Source: a virus
Lineage: Duplodnaviria; Caudoviricetes
IMG/VR virus record: IMGVR_UViG_3300030330_006525
Location: 121,579 to 185,578 of that record
Direction: 5' to 3' (one strand)
Length of the DNA: 64,000 nt
Numbering within the stretch: the stretch's first letter is position 1; each line of letters starts with the position of its first letter. Positions 189 through 62,336 of this stretch are shown piece by piece. The position numbers and the translations under genes were made by a program. The notes beneath the pieces were generated by a model. It was not told the DNA's origin. It did not search any database and saw only the letters and a program-made list of their open reading frames with translations.

Positions 189-1394
189 TTAGTAGTCCAA
201 TCTAACTCTCATAGTTAGTTCGTTTGTGGGGTCTTTTCGTAGAGGTTCTGAAACTTTGGCAATTGCTAATAGTTCATTGTCAGAGGAATATAGGCCTACG
301 CTTGTAATATAAGATATAGGCTGGTCTTTTCTTTCGTTTTTGACAACAATCTTACTTGAGTTCAAATATGTTGGATTTGAACTGTAATTGTAATCACCTA
401 ATTGAGCACGACACATATAAATTGTTGAATTTAACTCAACAGTATTATTAAAAGTAATATTCCTTATTCTATTTCTGAGCCCTCTTGCCAAATTTGGTAT
501 TGTAGCTGTATAAATTTCAGTTTTTGTGCCTGATAGCGAACCACCATTTCCAGAAGATGTTAATTCTAATCCAGTTCCTGGAAATTTGGCGGTTTCTAGA
601 AGATTGTCATTAAAAATAGAGGAGGTCAAAACTACAATACCGGGCTGATAGAATATCAAGCCCACTGGCAAACTAAGAGCTTCTGCTGTGTCAGTGCCTG
701 GATTACCGCCTGTTGCTGTGTCGACAATCCCGTGTTGAGCGGCAGTACCGCTGTCGTCTGAGCCCGACATATAGAGAAATCCATATTCACCAACAGTGGC
801 ATTAACTCTAAAACTGTCCGCACCGTTGTAAGTTACAGTCTGTCCTTTTTCTGCGACCGCGACATCTCTTATTACTGCAGAACCTGTAAATGGATTAGTA
901 TAACTTCTAGCAATTCCCAATGTTAGATTAAATGTGCCCTTTTTAATCTCATCTTTGACTAATAGTCTAGAGAAGTTAATGAAGTAACACTCGTTTATTT
1001 TTGTGCCGCCGGCAGCAATATTTCCATCTTGGTCAAACTGGATACCGTAATTTTGTCTCTTTTTGCCACTACCAAGCGAACCAGAGGTCACAAAGCCCAT
1101 AAGCATTTGACTATATAATTGATATATTCTTCCTTTATCATTTTTGCTTATAGTGTGTGGCGCTGAACTTCCTGTAAAGGCACCAAAACTTATATCCATA
1201 ATATGATTTGCAGATGAACTAGCGTGAGGATAATCAAAAATTGATTCGTAAAGATTGTGAGAAAAGGTTTTTACATTTCTGTCACCATATATCGAACCAG
1301 ATAAAATAGAGCCTGTTATTGGAATATATTCATGGAGCCTTGTTCTGGACTTTACAATATCGTTGGTTGTTAGCGTTCTAAAGGTTGTTGCCAT
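189..1394 (-). CDS. Putative virion (baseplate/tail-fibre attachment) protein, paralogue of 1396..2610
   Basis: 401 aa. The C-terminus YITSVGLYSSDNELLAIAKVSEPLRKD resembles the 'ExGLYD.DG.L.A.A' end of phage tail-collar/fibre (DUF3751-like) domains. Lies in the structural operon. Confidence 0.65.
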   Translation of the reverse strand: MATTFRTLTTNDIVKSRTRLHEYIPITGSILSGSIYGDRNVKTFSHNLYESIFDYPHASSSANHIMDISFGAFTGSSAPHTISKNDKGRIYQLYSQMLMGFVTSGSLGSGKKRQNYGIQFDQDGNIAAGGTKINECYFINFSRLLVKDEIKKGTFNLTLGIARSYTNPFTGSAVIRDVAVAEKGQTVTYNGADSFRVNATVGEYGFLYMSGSDDSGTAAQHGIVDTATGGNPGTDTAEALSLPVGLIFYQPGIVVLTSSIFNDNLLETAKFPGTGLELTSSGNGGSLSGTKTEIYTATIPNLARGLRNRIRNITFNNTVELNSTIYMCRAQLGDYNYSSNPTYLNSSKIVVKNERKDQPISYITSVGLYSSDNELLAIAKVSEPLRKDPTNELTMRVRLDY

Positions 1395-1395
1395 C

Positions 1396-2610
1396 TTAGT
1401 AATCTAACCTCACTCTTAGAAACAATTCATTAGTAGGGTCTTTTCTTAAGGGTTCAGAAAGTTTTGCAGTTGCTAAAAGTTCATTATCAGCTGAATATAA
1501 CCCAATTGTTGTGACATAGGACCGAGGAATGTCTGATTTTTGTTCTTTGACTCTTATTTGACTTCCGGATAAATAAGTTGGGTTTGAACTGTAATTAAAT
1601 TCATTGTGATTCATTCTGCAGAAATATACAGTTGAATTTAGTTCTGTTGTATTGTTAAAACTGATACTTTGTATCCTGGACCTAAGAGCAGAGCATGCTT
1701 GGTCAATTGTGCCTCTATCTACCATTCTTGCTGCAGTGGTCTGATGGCTGGGAAATTGTGTAAGATATACACTTGAGTCGGTAATCGCTGGTTCGCCGGC
1801 TGGAGACCCATTTAAAATTCCATCTTTATCCTGCGTAAAATCTGGAGCATTCGGATTACCTTTTTTGGAAAAAATCTTGGTATAATCTAACACAACAATT
1901 CCTGCTTGATAGTATATCAAGCCAACTGTACGGTCAGCCGCAGGAACACTGTTATCAATAGCGCCATCGGTTCCATCTTGAGCTTTAAGAAACCCGTATT
2001 CTCCAGCTGGTGAGTTGGATCTAAAATTATTAGTCGCGCCATCGTCAGTAATTAATATCCTGACATTGAAAGCTGTATTCAACTCTTCCTGAACTCCAAG
2101 AGTTAAGGAAAAACTACCTTTTTTAATTTCATCTTTTACCAATAGGCGAGAAAAACAAATAGCTGCAACATCAGCTATTTTATCTGAATGGTCTACATTG
2201 GCGGTTGCAAAATTTCCATCTCTATCAAATTTTCTAAGATTTCCGTTTTCATCGTATCCAACTAAAATCTGAGATAGTTGGTTATAAACATTTAACTTTT
2301 TCTCAGCTTGAGTATCCACAAGGCTGTTGCCTTCAGTATAAACACCAGCATTGCTCATTGAGCCGGTCTTAAAACCAAAAGTAATGTCAAACAAATGATT
2401 AGCAGATGAACTAAGATGTGGATAATCGTAAACAGATTGAAACATACCATGACTATATGTTTTAATGTGTGGCTCTGCTGAGCCTGTAATTATTGTTTTG
2501 TTCCCATAAGAACCAGATATTAATGAACCTGTTATTGGTATAGCTTCGTGCATCAAGCTTCTGCTGCTTGTTTTGTCGCTATTTGTGAATGTTTTAAAAG
2601 TACTAGCCAT
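1396..2610 (-). CDS. Putative virion (baseplate/tail-fibre attachment) protein, paralogue of 189..1394
   Basis: 404 aa. Shares blocks with the neighbour: IPITGSxxSGS, FSRLLVKDEIKKGxFxLTLG, GEYGFL, VGLIxYQxGIVVL, and the C-terminal SEPLRKDPTNELxxRVRLDY. Confidence 0.65.
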   Translation of the reverse strand: MASTFKTFTNSDKTSSRSLMHEAIPITGSLISGSYGNKTIITGSAEPHIKTYSHGMFQSVYDYPHLSSSANHLFDITFGFKTGSMSNAGVYTEGNSLVDTQAEKKLNVYNQLSQILVGYDENGNLRKFDRDGNFATANVDHSDKIADVAAICFSRLLVKDEIKKGSFSLTLGVQEELNTAFNVRILITDDGATNNFRSNSPAGEYGFLKAQDGTDGAIDNSVPAADRTVGLIYYQAGIVVLDYTKIFSKKGNPNAPDFTQDKDGILNGSPAGEPAITDSSVYLTQFPSHQTTAARMVDRGTIDQACSALRSRIQSISFNNTTELNSTVYFCRMNHNEFNYSSNPTYLSGSQIRVKEQKSDIPRSYVTTIGLYSADNELLATAKLSEPLRKDPTNELFLRVRLDY

Positions 2611-33612: not shown

Positions 33613-33638
33613 TGCTTTTAAAAATCCCTATTTTAATC

Positions 33639-33646: not shown

Positions 33647-33647
33647 T

Positions 33648-46756: not shown

Positions 46757-46768
46757 TTTTAATCGATT

Positions 46769-51347: not shown

Positions 51348-51351
51348 TATA

Positions 51352-52287
51352 TCACCTTTTAGTTAACTTATCTATAAACTTAGCCCTTACTAAAGTGGAT
51401 TGACTATCGTTTTTTAGTGCTTCTATATTGTCTGAAAACGCCTTCAACATATCGACAAAATGATTAGATGATTGTGTTTTAATTTTTTTACACAAACCAT
51501 CTTTCCAAAATTCTATTGGTATTTCGCATGTGTCAGGTCGTGTAAACACCCGATTTATTTTAAGTATTCCATTTTCACCCCAAATAGTTGCTTCGTTTCT
51601 ATAGGAATGACCAAAACCATATGATATGTTTGCAGTGGCTGTTGGATATTCGATTTGTATATATCCTCTTTCGTCTACTTCAGTTTCTTTATCGTAATAG
51701 ATAGAAGGCTTATAATCACAATAATTTTCACCCAAGAAGCGAAATACAAAACTCAAAGGGTATACCAAACAATCTAATATTGCACCACCGCCCAACTCTT
51801 TAAAATATCGTATATCTTCTTTATTATCAAAATGCGGAAAACCAAAGAAAGTCTCAATATGTTTTATTTTTCCTATATCTGAAACAAGTTGCGCTATTTG
51901 ATTTTGTAAAGGGTGATACTGATACATTAGCGCTTCCATACACGCTAATTGATTTGTATCAGACAGCTCAAACAACTCTTTTGCCTGATTATAAGTTTCT
52001 GTAAAAGTCTTTTCCATCAGTAAATGCTTTTGAGATTGTAAGACTTTTTTACCCCATTGATAATGTAAACCCACTGGCAAAGAAACGTAAATAGCATCAA
52101 CATCGCTAGTTAATAATTCATCATATGTATACGGTAAAGTATTGAAATTACCCGCAAATTCACTGGCTTTAACCTCAGAACGAGATGCAATACCGGATAG
52201 TTTAAAGTCTTTTGATTTTAAAATTGCAGGTATAACCAGCCTTTTTGCAGCTGAAGAACAACCTAGAACACCTATTTTAATGGGCAC
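51352..52287 (-). CDS. Gfo/Idh/MocA oxidoreductase, probable NDP-hexose 3-ketoreductase
   Basis: IGVLGCSSAAKR, DAIYVSLP..LH, HLLMEK, LGGGAILD..VYP. Adjacent to a 2,3-dehydratase, as for KijD10/SpnN-type reductases. Confidence 0.8.
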   Translation of the reverse strand: MPIKIGVLGCSSAAKRLVIPAILKSKDFKLSGIASRSEVKASEFAGNFNTLPYTYDELLTSDVDAIYVSLPVGLHYQWGKKVLQSQKHLLMEKTFTETYNQAKELFELSDTNQLACMEALMYQYHPLQNQIAQLVSDIGKIKHIETFFGFPHFDNKEDIRYFKELGGGAILDCLVYPLSFVFRFLGENYCDYKPSIYYDKETEVDERGYIQIEYPTATANISYGFGHSYRNEATIWGENGILKINRVFTRPDTCEIPIEFWKDGLCKKIKTQSSNHFVDMLKAFSDNIEALKNDSQSTLVRAKFIDKLTKR

Positions 52288-53677: not shown

Positions 53678-54306
53678 TCTACTGTCTCACAATCTTTAAA
53701 TAAATCAAAATTTCTCAAATCTGGATAATATGGTTCGTTTTCATACGAATCAATGTTTGGTATATCTTTGGCATGTGTTGGATAATTATGCATGAGCATC
53801 AAGCCTCTTGCGGCTTGCTCGGGAGTCATATAAGCATTCCATCCTAAAATTGCAATATTATCTTTATCCATCCTAATTTCGTGTCGGCCTTCGTACCTAG
53901 AACGTTTAGCAAAATAAACTAAATCTTCATCGTCAGTAAGAATCATCCCACCTTTACCAATTGGCAATAATTTTTTTATGTGAAATGACAAACACATAAT
54001 TGAGCCAGGAATGTACATTCCAGAAGTTAGCCTTTTTGCTGAATCCCATATTGGGTATGGCTCTAATTGATATATGCCCTCCCATTCATAATCACGAAAT
54101 TTAACAGTACCGCCGGCATGCATAATTGATTGAGGGACAGAAAGGTAAGTTCTAGCTGGTATTGTAACTTCTTCTACTTTTAGATACTTGGCAGCAATCA
54201 TTAAAGCATCAGTGCAATTATCTATTGCTATAGCAAATTTTGAACCACAATAATCTGCCATTGTTTCTTCAAACATCTCTACAACTCTAAAAGGGTTATG
54301 CCTCAT
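53674..54306 (-). CDS. DegT/DnrJ/EryC1/StrS-family sugar aminotransferase, unusually short
   Basis: FEETMADYCG..AIAIDNCTDAL, DSA, CLSFHIKKLLPIGKGGMILTDD (PLP-lysine loop), GWNAYM; 210 aa. Confidence 0.85.
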   Translation of the reverse strand: MRHNPFRVVEMFEETMADYCGSKFAIAIDNCTDALMIAAKYLKVEEVTIPARTYLSVPQSIMHAGGTVKFRDYEWEGIYQLEPYPIWDSAKRLTSGMYIPGSIMCLSFHIKKLLPIGKGGMILTDDEDLVYFAKRSRYEGRHEIRMDKDNIAILGWNAYMTPEQAARGLMLMHNYPTHAKDIPNIDSYENEPYYPDLRNFDLFKDCETVE

Positions 54307-55234
54307 CTTTGTTCTTTCTTATCTTATAAATAACTGCGCGAACAACTTGCTCAATTGAAATGCCATTACATCCAACTCTACCATCCGATTTTACAAAGAG
54401 ATTTAACGCTTCATCATTGACAGGTGTTAATGAATGAAACTTTTGATGATGGTCTGGAAGGTAATTTGTTATCAATTGCACAGCCGGCTTTGAGTAAGCA
54501 CCAACAACCCACATTGGACCGGTGTTAACTCCAACAACTACATCCGAAGCAAGACATGCTTTTACTTGGTCAAAGAAAGACATACTCGTCATTTTGTTGT
54601 AACCAGGACAGGAAGCTAATGGAGGTTCAGTATCTCTTCCATAATGATAAACACTAAAACCATTTTTGGTAAGTTTTTCTATTAGATTTTTCCACCAAAT
54701 TGAGTTTGGAGAACGGCCAGAATTTGCTTGACCTTGACCGAAAGGCCATATGGCCACACTTTTTTGAAATCCAGAAAGATCGTTTTTATTACTTTTACTG
54801 TAAGTGTGAGAGTGTTTGTTAGCGACTCCGATATCAAACCACTGATATAGCTTTGGCTTCATTTCTTCTTCTGTTAAAACTTCTGTTATATCATTTATTC
54901 CTGCAAGGATAGCTGTTTCTTCTACAAAATCAGTAAAATTATACCAATCAACTCGATTGTGTCTGAAGTTGTCGCATGTTGCTTTAACGTCACAAGATTC
55001 GATTAATCTATAATCATCTGGAGACCAACCATCCCATTTACCGCTAATGTGAATTCTGTCTATTAAAGGGTGATTTAAAAAAAGTGGCGCTGTGAAAGCG
55101 CAGCGCTTTTCAATTGCAAAATATTTGTAACTACCCGGGTATTTCTTTTCATAATAAGTAAGCATTGGTAAACCCCCAATAAGGTCACCAATTAATCCAT
55201 AACTCATTCCCCATACTTTTGTTTGTTTATTCAC
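54296..55234 (-). CDS. Glycosyltransferase, GT9 (heptosyltransferase)-like
   Basis: GLIGDLIGGLPML, LFLNHPLID, SFFDQVKACLASDVVVGVNTGPMWVVGAYSKPAV. Confidence 0.8.
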   Translation of the reverse strand: MNKQTKVWGMSYGLIGDLIGGLPMLTYYEKKYPGSYKYFAIEKRCAFTAPLFLNHPLIDRIHISGKWDGWSPDDYRLIESCDVKATCDNFRHNRVDWYNFTDFVEETAILAGINDITEVLTEEEMKPKLYQWFDIGVANKHSHTYSKSNKNDLSGFQKSVAIWPFGQGQANSGRSPNSIWWKNLIEKLTKNGFSVYHYGRDTEPPLASCPGYNKMTSMSFFDQVKACLASDVVVGVNTGPMWVVGAYSKPAVQLITNYLPDHHQKFHSLTPVNDEALNLFVKSDGRVGCNGISIEQVVRAVIYKIRKNKDEA

Positions 55235-55802
55235 CTTTTTTTATCACCGTTGTCCTGTGTTCCCATGACTCTTCACAGCATTGAAGAAATGTGTCCACCA
55301 CTTCACCACCATGAGCAGCTGCATATTTTTCCAAATCGTAACGAATCATCTCATTATTAGCAGATTCAATTATAATCAAATGACCATTGTCGCCCACCGT
55401 TTCATATAATTTGCTAAATATATCAACATTTTGTGGATATCCAAACATGTAAAAAACTCCGAATAAAAATACAACATCAAATCCACTTTCTTTAAAATTT
55501 TCAATACCATGATTACTAAAGGTTATATTAGGCCGCATGCTAGATTCCTTAAAAGGAACGTAATTGTCTATTGCGCGAACAGACTTTACATGTTCAGAAA
55601 AAAGCTTTGAGAATCTTCCACTACCTGAACCAACATCAAGAACTGCACTATCTGGTAGAAAATATTTGTTTATTCTTTTCCAGATGGTTTTTTCAAATCC
55701 GCTAGTATCTAAACGATTTTGATGTCCGAGGCCCGGGCCGCAGTATTCCCAATTTTTAAAGGGTAAGTTTTTTAATTTTTCTATTGATTTTTGATACTTC
55801 AT
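55227..55802 (-). CDS. Class I SAM-dependent methyltransferase
   Basis: VLDVGSGSG motif I, FDVVF, GHLII. Confidence 0.85.
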   Translation of the reverse strand: MKYQKSIEKLKNLPFKNWEYCGPGLGHQNRLDTSGFEKTIWKRINKYFLPDSAVLDVGSGSGRFSKLFSEHVKSVRAIDNYVPFKESSMRPNITFSNHGIENFKESGFDVVFLFGVFYMFGYPQNVDIFSKLYETVGDNGHLIIIESANNEMIRYDLEKYAAAHGGEVVDTFLQCCEESWEHRTTVIKKGE

Positions 55803-55804
55803 TT

Positions 55805-56299
55805 TTATTTTTCCCCAACTATCATAAAAGAATTATTTAAGTCAACACCTGAAGCAAATATATTTTTATATCCTAAGTGTTTCATAAAGTCTTGCATAAT
55901 TTCACTTGACAGTATGATCTTGTGCTTTTTATTGTTCCATGGCCTCCAATATTTTTGGCTGTAGTCTGGTAAGTATAAAAATAAAACTCCGTCCGGTTTT
56001 AAAATACTGTACCAGTATTCCATGACTTCTATCCAATTATCTATGTGTTCTAAACAATGACTGGAAAATATATAATCTACGTTTTTGTGGGGTAGATTCA
56101 TAGCTTCGTATTCATTATCAAAACTTAAATCAATTGGTATAGCTCCAGGCAATGCCCACTCTTCTTTTTTACAACCTATATCATAACCGAGGCCGCGGCA
56201 GAAGTGAGATGCATAAGGTATAGCGAATTGACTAGCTTTACCTTTTGTCTGAAATTTGGGATAATCTACACCCTCAAATGTAATAAAATTTTCTGACAA
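55805..56299 (-). CDS. Methyltransferase_11-like protein
   Basis: GYDIGC, VDYIFSSHCLEHI, ILKPDGVLFLYLP. TTG start. Confidence 0.8.
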   Translation of the reverse strand: MSENFITFEGVDYPKFQTKGKASQFAIPYASHFCRGLGYDIGCKKEEWALPGAIPIDLSFDNEYEAMNLPHKNVDYIFSSHCLEHIDNWIEVMEYWYSILKPDGVLFLYLPDYSQKYWRPWNNKKHKIILSSEIMQDFMKHLGYKNIFASGVDLNNSFMIVGEK

Positions 56300-56656
56300 T
56301 TAATCACCCTTTATTATCCTATAACTATCGCTATCAAAATGTTGCGTTGAAAATTCAAAAAGCTCTGTGTCCTCTAAAGCTATCATCTGGTGTCTTAATC
56401 CAGTGTATACATGAAAATTATCTCCAGGATTTAATATTGTTTCTTGTGCAGTATAAATATCGTCACTCATGGAATACAAAACTCTAATCTTACCAGACTG
56501 AATATAAAACACTTCGTCTTTTATTTTATGATAGTGCCAAGAACATCTTTTACCCTTATTGAAATAAAGCAACTTGCCACAATACTTATCATTGTTGACA
56601 ATCCACTTTTCATAACCCCAACCTTTTGGCACATGTTTAATCGGTAAAGAAGTCAA
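56300..56656 (-). CDS. Cupin-fold sugar(-phosphate) isomerase-like protein
   Basis: PKGWGYEKWI, SWHYHKIKDEVFYIQSG (cupin metal motif), RHQM. TTG start overlapping the upstream gene. Confidence 0.75.
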   Translation of the reverse strand: MTSLPIKHVPKGWGYEKWIVNNDKYCGKLLYFNKGKRCSWHYHKIKDEVFYIQSGKIRVLYSMSDDIYTAQETILNPGDNFHVYTGLRHQMIALEDTELFEFSTQHFDSDSYRIIKGD

Positions 56657-56963
56657 TATCCTTCATCCCTTTATCATCTATAAATATATCAGCTTCAGGT
56701 TTACCCATAAAGAGTTCATGAAACTTAACACCCCACTCTCTCAATTGATTTTCTGTAAAAGTGTATAAGCATTTATACGCACCAATTTGGTCATTATTAG
56801 TTCGTCCCATACCCCTAGCGGTTAATAAAATTATTTTGTGACCTTCATCATATAATTTGTTAACAACAGCAATACGTTCTAGTACTGGTGTTGATTCTGC
56901 GTAGTCTCCACTCTCTGGGTACTGTGAACAAAGCGTTCCATCAATATCAAAACAATATATCAT
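56637..56963 (-). CDS. Small HAD-family phosphatase (EcbF/BcbF capsule-phosphatase-like)
   Basis: FDIDGTL, LTARG, GKPEADIFIDDK. Confidence 0.85.
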   Translation of the reverse strand: MIYCFDIDGTLCSQYPESGDYAESTPVLERIAVVNKLYDEGHKIILLTARGMGRTNNDQIGAYKCLYTFTENQLREWGVKFHELFMGKPEADIFIDDKGMKDIDFFTD

Positions 56964-57738
56964 TTACATCTTCCTTTCTTAGTGCGTAAGTGCCGCTTTT
57001 TTGCACAACAGTGCTTGCACACATATTAGCACATCTTATTGCGGATTCTAAATCATTTTTAATCATGTACCCATAAACTAAAGCAGCTAAGAAGGTATCT
57101 CCTGCACCACTAACATCTGATACTTCTACTTTTTGTGTCGGATATTGCTTTTCTCTCCACCTTGCTCCATTTGGGCCTAACGTTGTAATAATTTCATTAT
57201 TCGTTCCGAAATCAGTAATATTATGATATTCTTTCTCATTCACTTTTATTACGCAGTTCTTGAAAACAGAAAGGTCAGTCTTCTTGGTGTCAACAAATAT
57301 CTTTTTCCGGAAAAGATTTTGGACGGCCTCTATAACGAACGGAGTTACAAAACCTTTATTGTAATCTGAAAATATTAAACAGTCATAAGAATCATCTCTA
57401 AGCATCGCTAAAGTTGTTAAGCCACCAACTACTAAACTTTTTACTTTTTCAGATTCTCCAAAATCAGAACGAAGTAAATGCTGCTTTGATCTTATATCGA
57501 CAAAACGTTCTTTTTTTATTTCTTCTTTGTTGGTCCAGACATCAGTCTCCACATCAAAAGCTTTAAGGTTGTTAGCAACGTTTAAAACCATGCCTTCGTT
57601 TTCTATTGTATGATTGTGTTGAAATATTGGAACTGGAGCTTCTGGACTTATTCTGTTGCAATAACCATAGTGGTAACGGTCAATACAACTGTCACCTATC
57701 AACAAGACTTTTAATTGTTTTTGTTGTTGAGTACTCAT
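56947..57738 (-). CDS. rfaE1: D-glycero-beta-D-manno-heptose-7-phosphate kinase (RfaE/HldE domain I, PfkB family)
   Basis: LIGDSCIDRY, RISPEAPVP, SDYNKG, VDTK, DVSGAGDTF. Confidence 0.88.
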   Translation of the reverse strand: MSTQQQKQLKVLLIGDSCIDRYHYGYCNRISPEAPVPIFQHNHTIENEGMVLNVANNLKAFDVETDVWTNKEEIKKERFVDIRSKQHLLRSDFGESEKVKSLVVGGLTTLAMLRDDSYDCLIFSDYNKGFVTPFVIEAVQNLFRKKIFVDTKKTDLSVFKNCVIKVNEKEYHNITDFGTNNEIITTLGPNGARWREKQYPTQKVEVSDVSGAGDTFLAALVYGYMIKNDLESAIRCANMCASTVVQKSGTYALRKEDVNDILF

Positions 57739-58096
57739 TTATTCTACTAAAAAATTTAAGCTCTTTTGCGTGCATTGAACCGATGACTACTTTGTCCTTG
57801 TAATCAGAGCCTACAATCATTATATCAGGTTTGTAACCTTTAATTAAATTTATTAACTCTTCATCGCTTGAAAACTTTTTTACTTCGTCAACAAAGCCTA
57901 TAGACGATAAAACATACATTCTGTCTTCTACATTATTAAAAGGGCGTGTTGCGCCTTTAGAAGCTTTTACTCTCTCGTCTGTGTCAACGGCAACCATCAA
58001 ATAGTCACCATGAGTCTTTGCGTATTGAAACATTTTGATATGACCGGGATGTAAAATGTCAAAACATCCGTTAATAAATACCTTTTTATTTCCCAC
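57692..58096 (-). CDS. rfaE2: Heptose-1-phosphate adenylyltransferase (RfaE/HldE domain II)
   Basis: NGCFDILHPGH, KGATRPFN, KPDIMIVGSDY, YSTT. Confidence 0.85.
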   Translation of the reverse strand: MGNKKVFINGCFDILHPGHIKMFQYAKTHGDYLMVAVDTDERVKASKGATRPFNNVEDRMYVLSSIGFVDEVKKFSSDEELINLIKGYKPDIMIVGSDYKDKVVIGSMHAKELKFFSRINEYSTTKTIKSLVDR

Positions 58097-58961
58097 TCAA
58101 AAAACCCCTATACCTTGCTATACCCTTTTTTAGGTCAAGAAAATTATTGTTGTATTTTCCAACTTCTCTAAGAAGATTTAGGTCTGCGCATGTATACTTT
58201 TGATACTTATCTCTCAAGTATTCTGGCATTTCTATTTCCTGTATTTTAAATTTAAGTTCTTGTTGCATAATATTTGCAATATCAGAAAAGCTTTTTGCGG
58301 TTCCTGTGCCGCAATTAAATATTCCAGAGATTTTTTTGTTTTCCATGAAATGTAAATTAACAGAAATAACATCATCTACATGTATAAAGTCTCTTTTATA
58401 GTTTTCGCTATTTTTAAATAATTGTATTTTATTTTTTAAATCTGATTGTTTTTTAAATTGATATATAACAGATGCCATATTTCCTTTATCTTGTTCACCT
58501 GGACCGTAAACATTAAAATATCTCAACCCAACAACCTGTGTGTTAACACCTTCACGCAAATAGGCTCTTACGTACTCATCAAATAGATGCTTTGATGTTG
58601 CATAAATATTTATTGGATTACTGTTATTTTCCGAGAATGGGCCATGGCCATAGATAGCTGCAGATGATGCATATATTAATCTTATATTATGCTTCAGACA
58701 ATATTTAAATAATTTAACAGAATAGTCAAAATTTCTCTCCATCATGAAACTAGTATTATAACACATTGTGTCTGTACAAGCTCCTTGATGAAATATCGTG
58801 TCTATAGATTTGGCAAACTCAACATTGTTCAATCTATCTAAAAAATCGTAAGGGTCAACGTAATCATCTTTAAAATCAACTTTAATAATTTCATATTTAT
58901 TTTTTAGGGATTCATATAGGTTTGAACCTATAAATCCTCCTGCCCCGGTGATGACTATCAT
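58086..58961 (-). CDS. hldD: ADP-L-glycero-D-manno-heptose 6-epimerase
   Basis: MIVITGAGGFIGSNL, FHQGACTDT, YASSAAIYG, YATSK, GLRYFNVYGPGEQDKGNMASV, KYQKYTCAD. Confidence 0.9.
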   Translation of the reverse strand: MIVITGAGGFIGSNLYESLKNKYEIIKVDFKDDYVDPYDFLDRLNNVEFAKSIDTIFHQGACTDTMCYNTSFMMERNFDYSVKLFKYCLKHNIRLIYASSAAIYGHGPFSENNSNPINIYATSKHLFDEYVRAYLREGVNTQVVGLRYFNVYGPGEQDKGNMASVIYQFKKQSDLKNKIQLFKNSENYKRDFIHVDDVISVNLHFMENKKISGIFNCGTGTAKSFSDIANIMQQELKFKIQEIEMPEYLRDKYQKYTCADLNLLREVGKYNNNFLDLKKGIARYRGFLSGK

Positions 58962-59800
58962 TTTTTATTTTCCAGTATTGTGTTTTCGAAAAGTAATAAT
59001 GCATTATAAACCTTTTCAGAAATTTTTTCAATTAGTTCATCACCAGATAAATGAAACCAGTCCTCATAGCTAGCGCCTAATAATCTTTTCTTAGTTATAA
59101 CTTTGCAATTTAACATTTTGGCTTCAACGACCAACCTACAAAGTGATTCTAAAACACCAGGAAAGAAAACTAAAGTTTCATACTGTGATAATATTTTTAA
59201 AAATTGTTTTGAGTCCGGTGCAGATATAAGATCAAAATCCATTTGCTTGCTGGTACAAAACTGTTTAGCCATCGGTGTATTTTTTATTGGATTGTTTGAA
59301 TTAACAATGGCAACTTTATTGTTCTTAGTTTTATCTAAATCTTTTATATATTGTAACGAAGATGGGTGCCACAAGCTTGTACCTATAGAAACACAATTAT
59401 TTAATTTTGCACTTTCTTCTAGAATCTTAACTTGTATAGAACTAAGACAAATAACTTTTTTTGCAGATTTATAAAATGATAAATTTATTAAATTTTGCTC
59501 TGGAATTTTAAAATCTTTAAACTTTGAAGGGTCGCGAGTAGAAACGTATTTATGGTCATGCTCATATATTAAGTAAGGTTTATTATTAATAATAAAGTCT
59601 CTATTATTAGAATCCAAGCCTATAAAATTAGATATTATTATATAGTCTAATTCTTGCAGTTTTTGAATTGTACAATTTTGGCTAGCTATTTTAATTAAAT
59701 CAAATTTTCTACTTAGATATGTGATGAGAACTTCATCATTTAATTCTGCTCCACCGGTAAGCTGTGAAGAGAAAAAGTCAGATATAAAACCTACCTTCAT
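58958..59800 (-). CDS. GT-B fold (GT4-like) glycosyltransferase
   Basis: GGAE N-terminal motif, YEHD, ESLCRLVVEAKMLNC (ExxxxxxxE donor motif). Confidence 0.7.
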   Translation of the reverse strand: MKVGFISDFFSSQLTGGAELNDEVLITYLSRKFDLIKIASQNCTIQKLQELDYIIISNFIGLDSNNRDFIINNKPYLIYEHDHKYVSTRDPSKFKDFKIPEQNLINLSFYKSAKKVICLSSIQVKILEESAKLNNCVSIGTSLWHPSSLQYIKDLDKTKNNKVAIVNSNNPIKNTPMAKQFCTSKQMDFDLISAPDSKQFLKILSQYETLVFFPGVLESLCRLVVEAKMLNCKVITKKRLLGASYEDWFHLSGDELIEKISEKVYNALLLFENTILENKK

Positions 59801-61080
59801 AAAATCTCAATCTTCTCTAATTCCTCTAGCCATTCTTTATCATCTTCAGAAATTGTCATACCTGGAATTGATAAAATATAATCAACGAATTGGGCTTGCA
59901 TCGCCTCGTCTGTAAACTTGGAAACATTTGCTTTCTTTAGCTTTTTAGCCCTCGATAAAGCAGGGCCATAGTTTTTATATAATTCTCTTAAAGAATCTTT
60001 ATATGACTGCTCTTCAGGGAAGCACCACTTTGAACCCTTTGGTATGACGCCTTCCCAAATTGCATTGTCTTGGACATCTCCCATTTTATAATCTATTTTT
60101 GTAAAGAGTGGCCGCACTTTTTCTTGAGTTTTACCTTTTCTGGTTGTCTTGACATTTGCATACAAAAAGTCCTTGTGACCGCTCCAATCAGGAGCAACAA
60201 CAGGAAGACCTGCACAACTAGCTTCAAAAAGAGAAAGCCCAAAACCCTCACCGTGAGTAGCTGTTACAAGTGCTTTAATCTTGTCATGATGATATAGTGC
60301 AGATAATTGTTCATCTGTTAAATCACCATGAAGCAAATAGATTTTACACTTTTTATCTCCTAAACTCTCAACCAAGCTAGTAATATTTTGTCTTGTTATA
60401 TGAAAATCGGGAGTTGAACAGTTCATTGAAAATATTTTTAAAACCATTCCAACGTTTTCGTTTCTAAATTCTTCTACAAACCATTTAACGGTATTCTCTA
60501 TATTTTTTCGCGGACCCCACTGGCTAATGACAAGAAAATTAAAATCTGTATCAAAATCAACATTAAAATTTTTATCTGGCTTAGCTAGACGATTAGGATA
60601 ATTAATGTACTCTACTGGAGTGTGGTTTTTAATTTCTCTAGTTTCTCCGCTTTTCATTTCAAGTTTATATCCTGTACCTTCGTAGATATCTTTTGAATGT
60701 TTAGATACAACTAAAATCTTATCCATCAATGAACTTTTTTGAATCCATTCAGGTGCAATTCTATCTGTCTCTATACCAGCAGTATAGCCAATATTTATTG
60801 GAGCAATTTTTTCAAATTCATTAGGAATAGTAACTTGTATTGACGCATCAAATTGACGCTCAGTTTCAGGTAAAGAAAATGTTTTGATTAACAATTGGTC
60901 AAACATTTTTCTTTCTTCATTATCTTCCCAAATCCACCCAGTTTGTCCCCATGGGATGTTAAAGGCATATACATCAAATATGTCTTGCCTAGAAAGCAAA
61001 GACCTAAGAGCAAATCTTGCTTGTTCACCATAACCAGAACGACTCATCATTGGGCCTTTTAAAATAATTTTTTTCTTCAT
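59797..61080 (-). CDS. GT4-family glycosyltransferase
   Basis: SGYGEQAR, RKNIE, HGEGFGLSLFEASCAGLPVVAPDWSGH. Start at MKKK (61080, ATGA overlap). Confidence 0.88.
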   Translation of the reverse strand: MKKKIILKGPMMSRSGYGEQARFALRSLLSRQDIFDVYAFNIPWGQTGWIWEDNEERKMFDQLLIKTFSLPETERQFDASIQVTIPNEFEKIAPINIGYTAGIETDRIAPEWIQKSSLMDKILVVSKHSKDIYEGTGYKLEMKSGETREIKNHTPVEYINYPNRLAKPDKNFNVDFDTDFNFLVISQWGPRKNIENTVKWFVEEFRNENVGMVLKIFSMNCSTPDFHITRQNITSLVESLGDKKCKIYLLHGDLTDEQLSALYHHDKIKALVTATHGEGFGLSLFEASCAGLPVVAPDWSGHKDFLYANVKTTRKGKTQEKVRPLFTKIDYKMGDVQDNAIWEGVIPKGSKWCFPEEQSYKDSLRELYKNYGPALSRAKKLKKANVSKFTDEAMQAQFVDYILSIPGMTISEDDKEWLEELEKIEIL

Positions 61081-62336
61081 ATCGCTGCTAATCTCCAATT
61101 TGTATACTCTTTTCTATTTTCCCAACTACCAAAATCTTCATGTGTTTTCAGCATCAAATTAACCCAATTTTCCTTAAAAGAGTTAAAATTATAGTTTTTA
61201 AGCACATGAGCACGGCCTTGTTGGCCAAGCTTCTTTCTACCTTCGGTGCCGGCGTTATATAATTCCCTCATAGCTTCAAGAAAATCTTCTTTGCAAATCC
61301 TGTCTTCGTAAATCCATGGAACTTGTTGAGAACCTATTATAGCTTTTGAAGATGGCTGTATTCCTTGACCAAACCAATTTTCTCCATCTGTTACTTGTTC
61401 TTGTAAACCACCAGTCATAGTAACTACAATAGGTGTGCCACAGCTAAGACTTTCTAGTGTTGCTAGTCCAAAACCCTCTGCATCAGATATATTAACAGTT
61501 AAATCTGCAGCTGCATACAGTCTGGCTAACATCTCAGGTGGTAATTTTTGTACAGACAAAGTAACTTGACCGTCTTTGAGGCCTAATTCGTTTAATATTG
61601 AATATAGGTCTTGACCATGAGGGTCACCCGGGTCTGTGTGCATAATTAATTTTGCTTTATCATGACCAATTTCATCAATAAATTCTTTGAACCAATAGAT
61701 TAAGCTACCAGATTGCTTTCTTCTTGCATTTCTATTATTCCAGAATACAACCATTGTATCATCATTATCAACCTCAAATGCTTGATTTCTGAAGCTTTTT
61801 CTATCTAAATCAGTCATAGGGGCAAAAATCTTGTCATCAACAGCATGTGGTATGTAATTAGAACGGACATCTGGAACTAGATTTTTTACTATATCATATG
61901 TCACTTTTGATATTGCTACTATGTTATCATTCGCAGCATACCATTTAGTATTAAAACTAGGATATGGATAATTATCCCAGACATGGTAGTAAATCATTGG
62001 AATATGTGCTCTAATTTCATTATCGAATGTCCACAACCATTCATAGAAACGAGGGTCGGTCATAAACCATAACATGTCAATTTTTTCATTTCTAATAATA
62101 GACCTGATTAATTCAGGAGTTCCGTAATCATCTACTGGATAGATTATCCAATCATCTCCATAATCACCCACCTTAATTGGCTCATAGTTTACATGCTTCA
62201 TAGCTCCACCTAGGCTTATGATTTTAAACTTTCCACTTTCCAGCAAAGCTTGCATAACATACTTTGTTTGTGTACCTACCCCACTAGGAGATAAAGGGTG
62301 GTCACTAAGAGTTAATATTTTTATTTTTTCATCCAT
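61077..62336 (-). CDS. GT4-family glycosyltransferase
   Basis: SGVGTQ, IPHAVD, NRNARRK, AEGFGLATLESLSCGTPIV..TGGL. Confidence 0.9.
   Translation of the reverse strand: MDEKIKILTLSDHPLSPSGVGTQTKYVMQALLESGKFKIISLGGAMKHVNYEPIKVGDYGDDWIIYPVDDYGTPELIRSIIRNEKIDMLWFMTDPRFYEWLWTFDNEIRAHIPMIYYHVWDNYPYPSFNTKWYAANDNIVAISKVTYDIVKNLVPDVRSNYIPHAVDDKIFAPMTDLDRKSFRNQAFEVDNDDTMVVFWNNRNARRKQSGSLIYWFKEFIDEIGHDKAKLIMHTDPGDPHGQDLYSILNELGLKDGQVTLSVQKLPPEMLARLYAAADLTVNISDAEGFGLATLESLSCGTPIVVTMTGGLQEQVTDGENWFGQGIQPSSKAIIGSQQVPWIYEDRICKEDFLEAMRELYNAGTEGRKKLGQQGRAHVLKNYNFNSFKENWVNLMLKTHEDFGSWENRKEYTNWRLAAI

What the first reader, a model, noticed from the sequence alone, without database searches (positions are those of the whole stretch)
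189..62336. Candidate phage-encoded virion O-glycosylation system: rare-sugar pathways, transferases and a Ser/Thr motif on structural proteins
Seen: a ~14 kb glycan locus (48241-62336; six transferase genes, about seven GT domains, two nucleotide-sugar pathways, two methyltransferases) sits next to the late sigma factor and the tail genes. A subset of those tail proteins is studded with [S/T]-G-S. Established: ADP-heptose is a donor for protein O-heptosylation on Ser in Gly/Ser turns (AAH/TibC-type enzymes), and virus-encoded virion glycosylation is known in chloroviruses, mimiviruses and some actinobacteriophages. Inference: this phage builds heptose- and deoxy(amino)sugar-containing O-glycans on its baseplate and fibre proteins at an [S/T]-x-S sequon. 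Alternatives are host LPS/EPS remodelling or DNA modification.
Basis: partly seen in the sequence, partly recalled or inferred. Interest (0 to 1): 0.85.

Follow-up and report, generated by a model that had tools for sequence, protein, structure and literature searches.

The report
Marine phage tail-glycosylation candidate system
An abundant uncultured marine T4-like phage carries a soluble sugar-building gene island, started by a conserved pair of glycosyltransferases, next to tail proteins studded with a short Ser/Thr-Gly-Ser motif, so it probably sugar-coats its own tail, though no glycan has yet been seen on any protein.

Summary
Both halves of the observation hold. The 14-kb locus (48241-62336) encodes an ADP-heptose route with a true HldD, part of a 2,6-dideoxy/amino-sugar route, two methyltransferases and five or six glycosyltransferase-like proteins. 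[ST]-G-S is the single most over-represented tripeptide in five tail proteins (SGS 27 vs 5.8, TGS 21 vs 4.9). T4 tail proteins show no such excess.

New here:
- The first two GT4 genes, with the PD-(D/E)XK nuclease upstream, are a core block in all 8 near-complete relatives and in Flavobacterium phage immuto and Microcystis phage Mel-JY01.
- The genes between that pair and the baseplate differ from phage to phage.
- The pair is predicted to form a heterodimer.
- The motif excess is lineage-wide, specific to certain proteins, and shifts position among homologues.
- No membrane or export protein, DNA hydroxymethylase, TET or C5-methylase is encoded.
- Published LC-MS of immuto DNA shows no sugar.

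Virion O-glycosylation is the best reading (about 0.45) but unproven. The AAH/TibC link fails: the GT9-like enzyme lacks the defining features. The "late sigma factor" was not found. This scan noted the same variable sugar slot in related genomes before.

The parts
62329..63099 (-). PD-(D/E)XK nuclease, the conserved upstream neighbour of the GT4 pair
   Evidence: PF12705 E 4e-21. Orthologues sit at the same position in immuto and Mel-JY01, in relative L094 (47% identity) and in LR756508.
61077..62336 (-). GT4-A, a core glycosyltransferase and proposed catalytic subunit of the priming heterodimer
   Evidence: Glycos_transf_1 E 7e-13. EX7E motif at 287-295 is invariant in 6 orthologues, including immuto. 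It is 52-60% identical in 8 relatives and 30% to immuto gp89. Net charge is -14. Predicted to bind GT4-B.
59797..61098 (-). GT4-B, the second core glycosyltransferase and partner of GT4-A
   Evidence: Glycos_transf_1 E 2e-7. EX7E at 284-292 has its first Glu invariant and its second nearly so. At least 7149 homologues at about 50% identity in marine metagenomes, many fused to GT2. It carries an intein in relative L097.
58958..59800 (-). 280-aa mini GT4-like protein, a frequent third gene of the conserved block
   Evidence: No Pfam hit. Homologues at 37-42% identity lie right after GT4-B in 5 of 8 relatives, three of them fused forms. The consensus has GGxE and ETxxRxVVEA. Atlas neighbours carry PF00534.
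56300..58961 (-). ADP-L-glycero-D-manno-heptose cassette: HldD, rfaE-II adenylyltransferase, rfaE-I kinase, HAD phosphatase and cupin (a candidate isomerase standing in for the missing GmhA)
   Evidence: NCBIfam TIGR02197 scores 304.6 bits, above cut-off; TIGR02199 E 4e-33; TIGR02198 E 7e-45; the HAD protein matches a capsule phosphatase family at E 1e-7. No SIS/GmhA in the genome. Kinase, NTase and HAD recur in 3 of 8 relatives; the cupin recurs with them in the two whose fetched stretch reaches it, at 71-76% identity. The cupin weakly resembles cupin sugar isomerases.
55227..56299 (-). Two SAM-dependent methyltransferases (sugar tailoring)
   Evidence: Methyltransf_23/11. The protein at 55805-56299 is 55% identical to a Mel-JY01 island methyltransferase.
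54296..55234 (-). GT9-fold candidate heptosyltransferase (312 aa)
   Evidence: AF2 pLDDT 95.5. Foldseek: WaaF 1psw E 1.3e-11, GT9 3tov, WaaC, TibC 4rap E 2.4e-8. Profile against PDB: WaaF E 6.6e-6. No Cys4 cluster.
50625..54306 (-). Deoxy/amino-sugar cassette: short DegT-like protein (210 aa), NDP-hexose 2,3-dehydratase, GFO-type (3-keto)reductase and RmlA-like nucleotidyltransferase. No 4,6-dehydratase is encoded.
   Evidence: The only SDR in the genome is HldD. The DegT-like protein keeps the Schiff-base Lys but lacks about 70 internal residues and the C-terminal domain. The same short form occurs in immuto (40% identity) and in L095 (61%).
48241..50698 (-). 544-aa two-domain GT-like protein and a 277-aa protein of unknown function, at the downstream end of the island
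   Evidence: Glyco_trans_1_2 E 3e-16 and a weak GT8 match for the 544-aa protein. Nothing was found for the 277-aa protein.
46769..48004 (-). Conserved downstream flank of the island: Zn-ribbon protein, 104-aa protein and 234-aa protein
   Evidence: The 234-aa protein is 54-63% identical in six of the eight relatives' stretches, and the Zn-ribbon protein is found in six. The Zn-ribbon protein matches PF09723. The 234-aa protein has no sigma-like hit; its weak PDB hit is to an inner baseplate protein.
31816..34046 (-). Baseplate wedge genes (gp6-like and gp25-like) that fix the module as tail/baseplate
   Evidence: PF04965 E 7e-14; PHROG baseplate wedge E 4e-20.
29513..31816 (-). 767-aa tail protein, motif-enriched (candidate acceptor)
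   Evidence: [ST]GS 5 vs 1.1, z 3.8.
12027..29516 (-). 5829-aa giant tail/fibre protein with FG-GAP repeats, motif-enriched (candidate acceptor)
   Evidence: [ST]GS 29 vs 7.8, z 7.2, spread over every 500-aa bin. FG-GAP_2 E 2e-54.
189..2610 (-). Two of three tandem paralogues (401 and 404 aa) of an uncatalogued, very abundant tail-module protein family; the strongest motif carriers (candidate acceptors)
   Evidence: 6 vs 0.8 and 5 vs 0.5. More than 7312 homologues. Two invariant N-terminal sites plus 56 variable motif columns. Excess of 7.4-fold and 5.6-fold across 80 related contigs. No known fold.
1..185 (-). N-terminal part of the third paralogue (410 aa; genome 120531-121763)
   Evidence: Genome ORF call; [ST]GS 3 vs 0.4.

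Best explanation
The phage encodes a self-contained, cytoplasmic glycosylation system whose acceptor is most likely its own distal tail proteins.

Proposed mechanism:
1. A conserved heterodimer of two GT4 enzymes (GT4-A/GT4-B), often followed by a mini GT4-like protein, attaches the first sugar or sugars to Ser/Thr in hydrophobic-[ST]-G-[ST] turns. The targets are the 401/404/410-aa paralogues, the 767-aa protein and the 5829-aa giant fibre protein.
2. The attachment happens before or during tail assembly.
3. The variable genes downstream then extend and tailor the glycan. In this phage they make ADP-L,D-heptose and a methylated 2,6-dideoxy or amino sugar, using a GT9-fold heptosyltransferase and a two-domain GT.
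4. Related phages keep the GT4 pair and the motif-rich acceptors but swap the sugar set, giving virion 'glycotypes' comparable to O-antigen serotypes.

Shown: gene identities, conservation, synteny, motif statistics, absence of export and DNA-hydroxylation genes.
Inferred: the acceptor, the order of steps, the sugars' final structures, and that the cupin replaces GmhA and the host supplies the 4,6-dehydratase.
For: 1. Motif specificity. SGS and TGS are the top two of all tripeptides in the five proteins (z 8.1 and 6.9; next 3.8). Position -1 is I/V/L/F in 25 of 48 instances. Codons are diverse.
2. T4 baseplate and fibre proteins show no excess (7 vs 9.6), so this is not a general fibre property.
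3. The excess is lineage-wide and protein-specific. Across 80 related contigs the ratios are 401-type 7.4x, 404-type 5.6x, 337-type 2.5x and 1257-type 0.5x.
4. In 116 homologues of the 401-aa family, [ST]G[ST] occupies 58 alignment columns. Outside the N-terminus the mean is 4.06 vs 1.08 expected, and 114 of 116 sequences exceed expectation. Control tripeptides reach at most 1.8x. This is sequon-like positional turnover.
5. GT4-A and GT4-B are core genes. They occur in 8 of 8 relatives that are at least 90% complete, at 44-60% identity and in the same slot. GT4-B has at least 7149 homologues, matching the 401 family in size.
6. The block PD-(D/E)XK, GT4-A, GT4-B, then variable sugar genes also occurs in phages of a Flavobacterium and a Microcystis. 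Their fibre-region proteins are motif-rich too, up to z 11. Conservation across host phyla fits a phage-encoded acceptor better than a host glycan.
7. Two phages with GT4-A but no GT4-B orthologue found (RM378, LR756508) have no or weak motif excess.
8. Predicted GT4-A/GT4-B complex: score 0.87, best of 3 controls 0.00. That mark was reached by 58 of 80 solved complexes and 2 of 110 mismatched pairs. Runs agree in at least 96% of contacts and partner pLDDT is 90. My own shallow alignments were used, and a two-protein GT-B O-glycosyltransferase (GtfA/GtfB, from my own knowledge) is solved, so likeness may contribute.
9. None of the island proteins has a TM segment, and the genome has no polytopic membrane protein.
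10. The variable middle is shown (TPP enzymes, B12-radical SAM, full-length DegT and mini GT4s in relatives). Three of 15 relatives carry MptE-like/Maf-type domains in or near the sugar region. By my own knowledge, Maf proteins are flagellin O-glycosyltransferases.
Against: 1. No glycan has been observed on any protein of this lineage; everything rests on sequence statistics and gene content.
2. The co-occurrence of the GT4 pair and the motif is confounded by common descent. All carriers belong to one broad lineage, and no near-complete relative without the pair was available as a control.
3. The two invariant N-terminal sites (T-G-[ST] at 27, S-G-T at 32) could be structural, and hydrophobic-[ST]-G-S could simply be a favoured strand-to-turn element of these folds.
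4. GT4-A's nearest solved relatives, BshA and MshA, act on small molecules.
5. The GT9-fold protein resembles the LPS enzymes WaaF and WaaC at least as well as TibC.
6. Capsid, sheath and other virion proteins are not enriched, and non-target proteins do not avoid the motif (35 vs about 30).
7. Both sugar routes lack a first committed enzyme (GmhA, RmlB).
Confidence: 0.45

Rival explanations
1. Host envelope remodelling. The soluble transferases act at the cytoplasmic face on host lipid-linked intermediates (lipid A-core, Und-PP-linked units), and host flippases export the product. This would change the infected cell's surface, for example to exclude superinfecting phages. On this reading the tail-protein motif is unrelated.
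For: The GT9-fold protein is closest to WaaF and WaaC. Source annotations of homologues read 'ADP-heptose:LPS heptosyltransferase' and 'RfaG'. ADP-L,D-heptose is the classical LPS-core donor (established knowledge). Missing GmhA and RmlB imply reliance on host sugar metabolism. Variable sugar sets also fit surface-antigen diversity. From my own knowledge, LPS-type gene clusters of unknown role are known in T4-like cyanophages.
Against: The GT4 pair is conserved as a core block in phages infecting Bacteroidota and Cyanobacteria, whose envelope cores differ. No initiating transferase, flippase, polymerase or ligase is encoded. GT4-A is strongly acidic (-14), which is unusual for a membrane-surface enzyme. 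This reading leaves the highly specific, lineage-wide motif excess unexplained.
Confidence: 0.25
2. The glycan goes to some other cytoplasmic acceptor: another phage or host protein, a small molecule, or a free oligosaccharide. The [ST]-G-[ST] excess would then be a structural or otherwise functional feature of these tail folds, unconnected to the transferases.
For: GT4-A's best solved relatives, BshA and MshA, glycosylate small molecules. Two motif sites are invariant across the family, as expected of structural elements. PF20706 'GT4 in conflict systems' gives weak hits. The 401-aa fold is unknown, so a structural role cannot be judged.
Against: Motif positions turn over (58 columns) while density is kept in 114 of 116 homologues. 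That is hard to explain by a fixed structural role. The excess spans unrelated proteins (the 401 family, the 767-aa protein, the giant protein, immuto fibres and spikes) but not their neighbours. A hypervariable rare-sugar set is not expected for an intracellular small-molecule product.
Confidence: 0.22
3. DNA hypermodification. The transferases add heptose or other sugars to a modified base in phage DNA, as in the phage gene clusters that glycosylate 5hmC or 5-hydroxycytosine.
For: Phage GT-B enzymes that resemble BshA and MshA put hexose, HexNAc, Kdo or heptose on 5hmC. One such cluster uses a HAD/kinase enzyme plus a cytidylyltransferase, and some lie near structural genes (bioRxiv 10.1101/2023.12.21.572611). 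A nuclease gene adjoins the GT4 pair.
Against: The genome holds no thymidylate-synthase-type hydroxymethylase or 5hoC synthase, no TET/JBP dioxygenase and no C5 cytosine methyltransferase, so there is no route to a hydroxylated base. Those enzymes are prerequisites in both published systems. LC-UV-MS of virion DNA of Flavobacterium phage immuto_2-6A, which has the orthologous GT4 block, found canonical dA, dC and dT, with dG fully replaced by formyl-preQ1 (324 Da) and no sugar adduct (bioRxiv 10.1101/2023.04.13.536721). GT4-A is acidic.
Confidence: 0.06

Closest known systems
Virion glycosylation in mycobacteriophages Che8, Corndog and Myrna (Freeman et al. 2023, Cell Host Microbe 31:1216; known here only through citing papers PMC12363180 and PMC12582341)
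   Same: Phage-encoded soluble glycosyltransferases next to structural genes modify the phage's own virion proteins in the cytoplasm. There is no export machinery.
   Different: There the acceptors are capsid and tail-tube proteins of siphoviruses of actinobacteria. Here the candidates are baseplate and fibre proteins of a 186-kb T4-like marine myovirus. This system also has a dispersed short motif, a conserved GT4 heterodimer and a large swappable rare-sugar island. GT4-A shows only a weak match (24% identity) to a GT in the structural region of actinophage TJE1. Nothing here is experimentally shown.
GtfA/GtfB O-GlcNAc transferase of serine-rich-repeat adhesins (accessory Sec system); from my own knowledge, with only weak GT4 family hits here (TIGR02918 E 0.0099 to GT4-B; PDB 4pqg Gtf1 E 1.8e-4 to GT4-A)
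   Same: Two adjacent GT-B proteins work as a complex to O-glycosylate Ser/Thr of a large surface protein in the cytoplasm. Further transferases then extend the glycan.
   Different: Sequence similarity is only at GT4-superfamily level. Both phage subunits keep the EX7E motif, whereas GtfB is non-catalytic. The acceptor motif is dispersed rather than a long Ser-rich repeat. The heterodimer here is predicted only.
BAHT family (TibC, AAH): ADP-heptose-dependent O-heptosylation of autotransporters (PMC4358343)
   Same: ADP-heptose donor, GT-B catalytic fold and a protein Ser acceptor. TibC appears among the structural matches of the 312-aa protein (E 2.4e-8).
   Different: The phage protein lacks the N-terminal beta-barrel, beta-hairpin thumb and four-Cys iron finger needed for the dodecamer. 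It matches WaaF and WaaC better. It is also an accessory gene, not part of the conserved core.
Glycosylation machinery of chloroviruses and other giant viruses (PMC9614988, PMC5408694)
   Same: The virus encodes nucleotide-sugar pathways for rare sugars plus cytoplasmic GTs that decorate virion proteins independently of host membranes. PBCV-1 B736L (PDB 3oy2) is among GT4-A's sequence hits (E 1.1e-6).
   Different: Those are eukaryotic viruses with capsid or fibril acceptors and mostly N-linked, atypical sequons in chloroviruses. There is no conserved GT4 heterodimer with swappable-island architecture.
Phage DNA glycosylation clusters (5hmC and 5hoC glycosylation; bioRxiv 10.1101/2023.12.21.572611, PMC13326640)
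   Same: Phage GT-B/GT-A enzymes with sugar-activation genes, diverse glycans including heptose, sometimes near structural genes.
   Different: Those systems require a ThyA homologue, or a C5-methyltransferase plus TET-like oxygenase. None is present here, and DNA of the cultured relative carries no sugar.
Bacterial O-antigen and capsule loci; LPS-type gene clusters of T4-like cyanophages (my own knowledge)
   Same: Conserved flanking genes bracket a hypervariable set of rare-sugar and GT genes. GT9 and HldD/RfaE enzymes are shared.
   Different: No Wzx/Wzy/ABC exporter, initiating phosphoglycosyl transferase or ligase is present. The locus lies inside a phage tail module.

Membership tests
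BAHT (TibC/AAH) protein O-heptosyltransferases | N-terminal beta-barrel domain (TibC residues 1-97) preceding the catalytic domain (PMC4358343) | tested here: not met
   The 312-aa protein starts directly with the first Rossmann strand (E6-8) in a pLDDT 95.5 model. It is about 90 residues shorter than TibC.
BAHT (TibC/AAH) protein O-heptosyltransferases | Iron-finger: four conserved Cys (TibC C339, C342, C358, C370) inserted in the C-lobe | tested here: not met
   Cys occurs at 45, 81, 87, 209, 227 and 289 only. There is no CxxC pair, and only C81 is nearly invariant in 53 homologues.
BAHT (TibC/AAH) protein O-heptosyltransferases | Dodecameric ring and heptosylation of a beta-helical autotransporter | not testable with these tools
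   This needs biochemistry. No autotransporter-like acceptor is encoded.
GT9 heptosyltransferase fold (WaaC/WaaF type) | GT-B fold with closest structural and profile similarity to ADP-heptose transferases | tested here: met
   Foldseek: 1psw E 1.3e-11, 3tov 1.6e-10, 2gt1 1.6e-9; all of the top 11 listed rows are heptosyltransferases. Profile against PDB: 1psw E 6.6e-6. The Pfam and NCBIfam single-sequence searches gave no hit or stayed far below cut-off.
GT4 retaining glycosyltransferases | Glycos_transf_1 C-terminal domain with EX7E motif | tested here: met
   GT4-A: PF00534 48.9 bits, EGFGLATLE invariant. GT4-B: 31.2 bits, EGFGLSLFE with first E invariant and second nearly so. The 280-aa protein shows only a consensus ETxxRxVVEA and no Pfam hit.
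GtfA/GtfB-type two-protein O-glycosyltransferase | Two adjacent GT-B proteins forming a complex | tested here: inconclusive
   The predicted complex scores 0.87 against a best control of 0.00. This is a model, possibly helped by likeness to solved complexes. Sequence hits to GtfA/Gtf1 are weak.
GtfA/GtfB-type two-protein O-glycosylransferase | Serine-rich-repeat acceptor and accessory Sec genes | tested here: not met
   There is no Ser-rich repeat protein and no SecA2/SecY2. Motifs are dispersed singly.
ADP-L-glycero-beta-D-manno-heptose pathway (GmhA, HldE kinase, GmhB, HldE adenylyltransferase, HldD) | All five activities encoded | tested here: not met
   HldD is above the equivalog cut-off. 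The kinase and adenylyltransferase domains are the best hits but fall below cut-off. The HAD phosphatase match is weak. No SIS-type GmhA is found in the genome. A cupin conserved with the cassette may replace it, which is inference.
dTDP-2,6-dideoxy / 3-amino-2,3,6-trideoxy-hexose pathway | RmlA, RmlB (4,6-dehydratase), 2,3-dehydratase, then 3-ketoreductase or 3-aminotransferase | tested here: not met
   The RmlA-like protein, the 2,3-dehydratase (E 2e-99) and the GFO reductase are present. No 4,6-dehydratase exists; the only SDR is HldD. The DegT-like protein is a 210-aa short form that keeps the Lys but lacks about half of the fold.
Phage DNA base-glycosylation clusters | Enzyme creating a hydroxylated base: ThyA-type hydroxymethylase or 5hoC synthase, or C5-methyltransferase plus TET/JBP oxygenase | tested here: not met
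   PF00303, PF12851 and PF00145 have no match in the 185,578-bp genome. Divergent forms cannot be fully excluded.
Und-P-dependent surface polysaccharide loci (O-antigen, capsule) | Initiating phosphoglycosyl transferase, flippase or ABC exporter, polymerase or ligase (polytopic membrane proteins) | tested here: not met
   A hydropathy scan found no TM-like segment in any island protein and no polytopic membrane protein in the genome. This was a crude Kyte-Doolittle window, not a dedicated predictor.
Phage-encoded virion glycosylation (actinobacteriophage type) | Glycan demonstrated on virion proteins and dependent on the phage GTs | not testable with these tools
   This needs glycoproteomics or genetics. 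Cultured relatives exist (immuto, Mel-JY01).

The most novel reading that the evidence does not exclude
One of the ocean's most abundant uncultured myovirus lineages, with cultured cousins on Flavobacterium and Microcystis, uses a dedicated heterodimeric GT4 enzyme to write an O-glycosylation code (hydrophobic-[ST]-G-[ST]) onto its baseplate and fibre proteins. It then diversifies the attached glycan through an O-antigen-like swappable island of rare-sugar genes. Virions of near-identical phages would then differ in 'glycotype', a new layer of phage-host and phage-environment specificity.
Probability: 0.35. Interest if true: 0.88.

Novelty: new variant of a known kind. Interest (0 to 1): 0.7.

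Why it matters
Virion glycosylation by phage-encoded enzymes is so far documented only for a few actinobacteriophages, and outside phages for giant viruses of eukaryotes.

If this reading holds, a very large marine phage lineage decorates its host-recognition apparatus with variable rare-sugar glycans. Each marker family has more than 7000 members at 90% clustering. Such decoration would bear on host range, adsorption, particle stickiness and stability in seawater, and recognition by grazers or defences. It would also explain the long-puzzling 'LPS-like' gene islands of large aquatic phages.

The finding supplies three practical things:
- a short candidate sequon;
- a defined enzyme pair;
- two cultured systems (Flavobacterium phage immuto, Microcystis phage Mel-JY01) in which the question can be tested directly.

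Even if the acceptor proves to be something else, the architecture is new: a conserved GT4 heterodimer, a hypervariable sugar cassette, and a conserved baseplate flank.

Tried and rejected
- Fold of the 401-aa protein. The AF2 model has pLDDT 65.5. Foldseek against PDB gave nothing at E<=0.001, VIA wide search gave best Z 3.7, and a profile against PDB sequences gave nothing. The family's place in the virion rests on gene order only. The 767-aa protein also has no PDB sequence relative.
- T4-type late promoter TATAAATA. There were 14 matches against 9.4 expected, and none sits in the few intergenic gaps. No statement on timing is possible.
- The 236-bp 'gap' at 48005-48240 appears to contain a small ORF and is not an obvious promoter region.
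- 'Late sigma factor'. No sigma-like hit in Pfam, PHROGs, NCBIfam or PDB for ORFs at 44029-48004 or 62329-63956.
- First search for relatives with the single 401-aa protein gave only 2 loci. The alignment-based scan was needed.
- A scan of bacterial genomes for close relatives of the 2,3-dehydratase found none, so the donor lineage and host remain unknown.
- The 280-aa protein is not detectably MptE/Maf-like. PF01973 has no match in this genome, and its relatives hit GT2/GT1 families instead.
- Motif avoidance in non-target proteins was considered and not seen (35 observed against about 30 expected).
- Freeman et al. 2023 could not be read. Statements about it come from citing papers.
- Paper searches for glycosylated tail fibres and for Mel-JY01 returned nothing relevant.

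Full report
**Context**

The window is the last 64 kb (121579-185578) of a 185,578-bp IMG/VR virus record that CheckV rates 100% complete. Every sizeable ORF lies on the minus strand. GC is 30-43%, and no tRNA lies in the window.

gp25-like (33648-34046) and gp6-like (31816-33612) genes mark a myovirus baseplate module. Read in the direction of transcription, the order is:
- PD-(D/E)XK nuclease
- the glycan locus (62336 down to 48241)
- small conserved genes
- an M23-peptidase protein and hub-region genes
- a 3320-aa protein
- gp25 and gp6
- a 767-aa protein
- a 5829-aa protein
- four further proteins
- three tandem paralogues of about 400 aa, the last of which starts at window base 185

**The glycan locus is real**

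Pfam and NCBIfam identify:
- two GT4 enzymes;
- HldD, above NCBI's equivalog cut-off at 304.6 against 274.6 bits;
- separate RfaE kinase and adenylyltransferase genes;
- a small HAD phosphatase and a cupin;
- two SAM methyltransferases;
- a short DegT-like protein;
- an NDP-hexose 2,3-dehydratase (E 2e-99);
- a GFO-family reductase and an RmlA-like nucleotidyltransferase;
- a 544-aa two-domain GT-like protein.

The 312-aa protein at 54296-55234 gave only a trace GT9 signal by sequence. With 53 homologues it folds at pLDDT 95.5. Its best PDB matches are all heptosyltransferases: WaaF 1.3e-11, a GT9 protein, WaaC, then TibC 2.4e-8.

The 280-aa protein at 58958-59800 has no Pfam hit. Its family consensus carries GGxE and an E-x7-E element, relatives are often fused to GT2 domains, and its Atlas neighbours carry PF00534. 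I read it as a mini GT4-like protein.

Both sugar routes lack their first committed enzyme. No SIS-type GmhA exists, and no second SDR could serve as a 4,6-dehydratase, anywhere in the genome. The cupin is 71-76% identical in the two relatives whose fetched stretch reaches it, and it travels with the kinase/adenylyltransferase/phosphatase cassette. It weakly resembles cupin-type aldose-ketose isomerases. That it replaces GmhA is an inference.

The DegT-like protein keeps the Schiff-base lysine but lacks about 70 internal residues and the C-terminal domain. The same short form recurs in phage immuto and in a relative, so it is a family and not a recent wreck.

**The motif is real and specific**

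Shuffling within each protein gives these [ST]GS counts:

| Protein | Observed | Expected |
|---|---|---|
| 401 aa | 6 | 0.8 |
| 404 aa | 5 | 0.5 |
| 5829 aa | 29 | 7.8 |
| 767 aa | 5 | 1.1 |
| third paralogue (410 aa) | 3 | 0.4 |

Their neighbours (the 1257-, 1166- and 3320-aa proteins and gp6-like) show none.

A blind scan of all tripeptides in the five proteins ranks SGS (z 8.1) and TGS (z 6.9) first. The next best reaches z 3.8. The residue before the motif is I, V, L or F in 25 of 48 cases.

The 48 instances are written with 34 different 9-mers and ordinary codon usage. They are spread along the whole giant protein, so this is neither a DNA-level signal nor a tandem repeat.

As a negative control, 17 baseplate, whisker and fibre proteins of T4 contain 7 motifs against 9.6 expected.

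**The motif carriers belong to a huge family**

The 401-aa protein has more than 7312 homologues at about 45% identity, mostly from marine metagenomes. No match was found in Pfam, PHROGs, PDB sequences or PDB folds.

In 116 aligned homologues:
- T-G-[ST] at residue 27 and S-G-T at residue 32 are invariant or nearly so.
- Beyond these, [ST]G[ST] occupies 56 further alignment columns at intermediate frequencies.
- Outside the N-terminus the mean is 4.06 per protein against 1.08 expected.
- 114 of 116 sequences exceed expectation, and ten control tripeptide classes stay at or below 1.8-fold.

Across 80 related viral contigs the excess is 7.4-fold in 401-type and 5.6-fold in 404-type proteins. It is 2.5-fold in the adjacent 337-type protein and 0.5-fold in the 1257-type protein.

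So which proteins carry the motif is conserved, while where they carry it drifts. That is the behaviour of a modification sequon, although related sequences are not independent samples.

**The GT4 pair is a core gene block; the rest of the island is a swappable cassette**

A pair of adjacent GT4 genes of about 420 aa is present in 15 of 19 long related records, including all 8 that are at least 90% complete. The four records without it are only 56-61% complete. None of the 19 has a true HldD, and their SDR gene sets differ widely.

I fetched 20 kb from each of eight near-complete relatives. They share:
- on one side, GT4-A (52-60% identity), GT4-B (44-50%) and, in five of the eight, the 280-aa protein (37-42%);
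- on the other side, in most of them, the Zn-ribbon protein and the 234-aa protein (54-63%).

Between these flanks lie roughly 5-17 kb of genes that mostly have no counterpart here. Sampled examples include TPP-dependent enzymes, B12-radical-SAM and SPASM enzymes, full-length DegT aminotransferases and several mini GT4s. Three of 15 relatives carry MptE-like (Maf-type) domains in or near the sugar region.

GT4-B has at least 7149 homologues at about 50% identity, the same order as the 401 family, and many are fused to GT2. In one relative GT4-B is interrupted by an intein. From my own knowledge, inteins tend to sit in conserved sites of important proteins.

Both GT4s keep the EX7E motif. A complex prediction of GT4-A with GT4-B scored 0.87 against a best control of 0.00. 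That mark was reached by 58 of 80 solved complexes and 2 of 110 mismatched pairs. The runs share at least 96% of contacts, and partner pLDDT is 90. In the model the C-terminal tail of GT4-A (413-419) packs against residues 252-261 of GT4-B. This supports binding but does not show it. My own shallow alignments were used, and likeness to solved two-protein GT-B complexes may contribute.

**The block is older than the clade and crosses host phyla**

Among 50,697 phage records, the 401-like C-terminus and GT4-A are found in the same seven records: four Flavobacterium phage immuto records, Microcystis phage Mel-JY01, Rhodothermus phage RM378 and a 484-kb uncultured phage. GT4-A also gives a weak match in actinophage TJE1.

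In immuto and Mel-JY01 the order is PD-(D/E)XK nuclease, GT4-A, GT4-B, then GT2s, aminotransferases, methyltransferases and epimerases. The orthologues are about 30% identical to ours. Their 401-like and fibre or spike proteins are motif-rich too:
- immuto: 4 vs 0.43, 5 vs 0.77 and 8 vs 1.48;
- Mel-JY01: 9 vs 0.61 and 5 vs 0.52.

RM378 and the 484-kb phage have GT4-A but no detectable GT4-B. They show no excess or only a weak one. T4 has neither. The trend fits the hypothesis, but it consists of few, phylogenetically linked points.

**Weighing the acceptors: DNA**

Published phage systems that glycosylate DNA, with heptose in one case, start from 5hmC or 5-hydroxycytosine. Those bases are made by a ThyA homologue or by a C5-methyltransferase plus a TET-like oxygenase. 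None of these families has a match in the genome.

LC-UV-MS of immuto_2-6A virion DNA found canonical dA, dC and dT, and formyl-preQ1 in place of dG, with no sugar adduct (bioRxiv 10.1101/2023.04.13.536721). That phage carries the orthologous block. GT4-A is also strongly acidic. I rate DNA at about 0.06.

**Weighing the acceptors: host envelope**

For this reading:
- the GT9-fold enzyme looks like WaaF and WaaC;
- ADP-L,D-heptose is the LPS-core donor;
- the pathways lean on host enzymes.

Against it:
- no initiating transferase, flippase, polymerase, ligase or any polytopic membrane protein is encoded;
- the core GT4 pair is shared by phages of Bacteroidota and Cyanobacteria;
- the motif statistics are left unexplained.

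I rate it at about 0.25.

**Weighing the acceptors: other targets and virion proteins**

A third possibility is some other cytoplasmic acceptor together with a purely structural motif. I rate that at about 0.22.

Virion tail proteins are the only acceptor that ties together:
- the core GT4 pair;
- its position in the tail module;
- the soluble machinery;
- the surface-antigen-like variability;
- the specific, drifting, lineage-wide motif.

I put this at about 0.45.

The TibC/AAH analogy does not hold as membership. The 312-aa protein lacks the N-terminal beta-barrel and the four-cysteine iron finger that the family needs for its dodecamer. It is an accessory of this phage and not part of the conserved core.

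Heptose and the dideoxy sugar are likewise one glycotype among many. No sigma factor was detected beside the locus.

**Relation to earlier notes of this scan**

Other windows from related genomes were already noted to carry different sugar sets (nonulosonic acid or Kdn, fucose or perosamine with sulfotransferases) after a GT4 pair, with no membrane machinery and an unknown acceptor. My independently confirm that architecture.

The addition here is threefold: the link to a specific motif on specific tail proteins, the predicted GT4 heterodimer, and the experimental argument against DNA.

**Verdict**

It can be tested directly in two cultured phages.

Noticed in passing
L097:15817-18327 (relative G005): The GT4-B orthologue of one relative is 836 aa and contains an intein (Intein_splicing E 1.6e-13 plus a LAGLIDADG domain). 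Inteins usually sit in conserved sites of important genes.
   Followed up: partly
window 53674-54306; L091:14692-15336; L095:6961-7581: A recurrent 206-214-aa 'half' DegT/perosamine-synthetase-like protein. It keeps the PLP lysine but lacks about 70 internal residues and the C-terminal domain. It is found here, in phage immuto (40% identity) and in a relative (61%). Function unknown.
   Followed up: partly
window 56300-56656: This 118-aa cupin is the best-conserved gene of the heptose cassette (71-76% identity in relatives, against 35-50% for the kinase, NTase and phosphatase). No GmhA exists in the genome. It may be a cupin-type sedoheptulose-7-P isomerase.
   Followed up: partly
window 189-2610 and genome 120531-121763: Three tandem paralogues (401, 404 and 410 aa) belong to a family with more than 7000 metagenomic members. 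The family has no Pfam, PHROG or PDB match and no recognisable fold. The termini are invariant (MA...IPITGS.VSGT at the N-terminus, ...LRVRLDY at the C-terminus) but poorly modelled, which would suit strand-exchange arms.
   Followed up: partly
window 12027-29516 and 34064-44026: Two giant tail-module proteins of 5829 and 3320 aa. The larger has four FG-GAP repeat stretches (E 2e-54) and a weak reelin-subrepeat hit. The smaller has no family match at all.
   Followed up: partly
window 55805-56299 vs Microcystis phage Mel-JY01 86962-87459: The island methyltransferase is 55% identical to one in the Mel-JY01 island, although the core GT4 genes of the two phages are only about 30% identical. This suggests island genes are exchanged between distant phages.
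   Followed up: no
window 3729-7502 and homologues in 76 related contigs: The 1257-aa-type tail protein is depleted in [ST]GS (13 observed against 26.5 expected), next to strongly enriched neighbours.
   Followed up: no
window 48005-48240: The only sizeable 'intergenic' gap of the window appears to hold a small minus-strand ORF starting MNLSDQALGAIMMALQK. The whole window would then be one unbroken gene array.
   Followed up: no
L093:14510-16297, L099:8941-10809, L099:11829-13382: Sugar islands of relatives encode TPP-dependent (acetolactate-synthase-like) enzymes and B12-binding radical SAM enzymes. These hint at branched-chain or C-methylated sugars.
   Followed up: partly
PP395634.1 83441-84932: In Mel-JY01 the GT4-A orthologue is annotated as two genes (190 and 302 aa) that together cover the whole of GT4-A. 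It is either a split gene or a sequencing frameshift.
   Followed up: no
window 45144-46466: A 440-aa protein with a C-terminal M23 peptidase domain lies in the hub region. It is probably the tail-associated cell-wall hydrolase.
   Followed up: no
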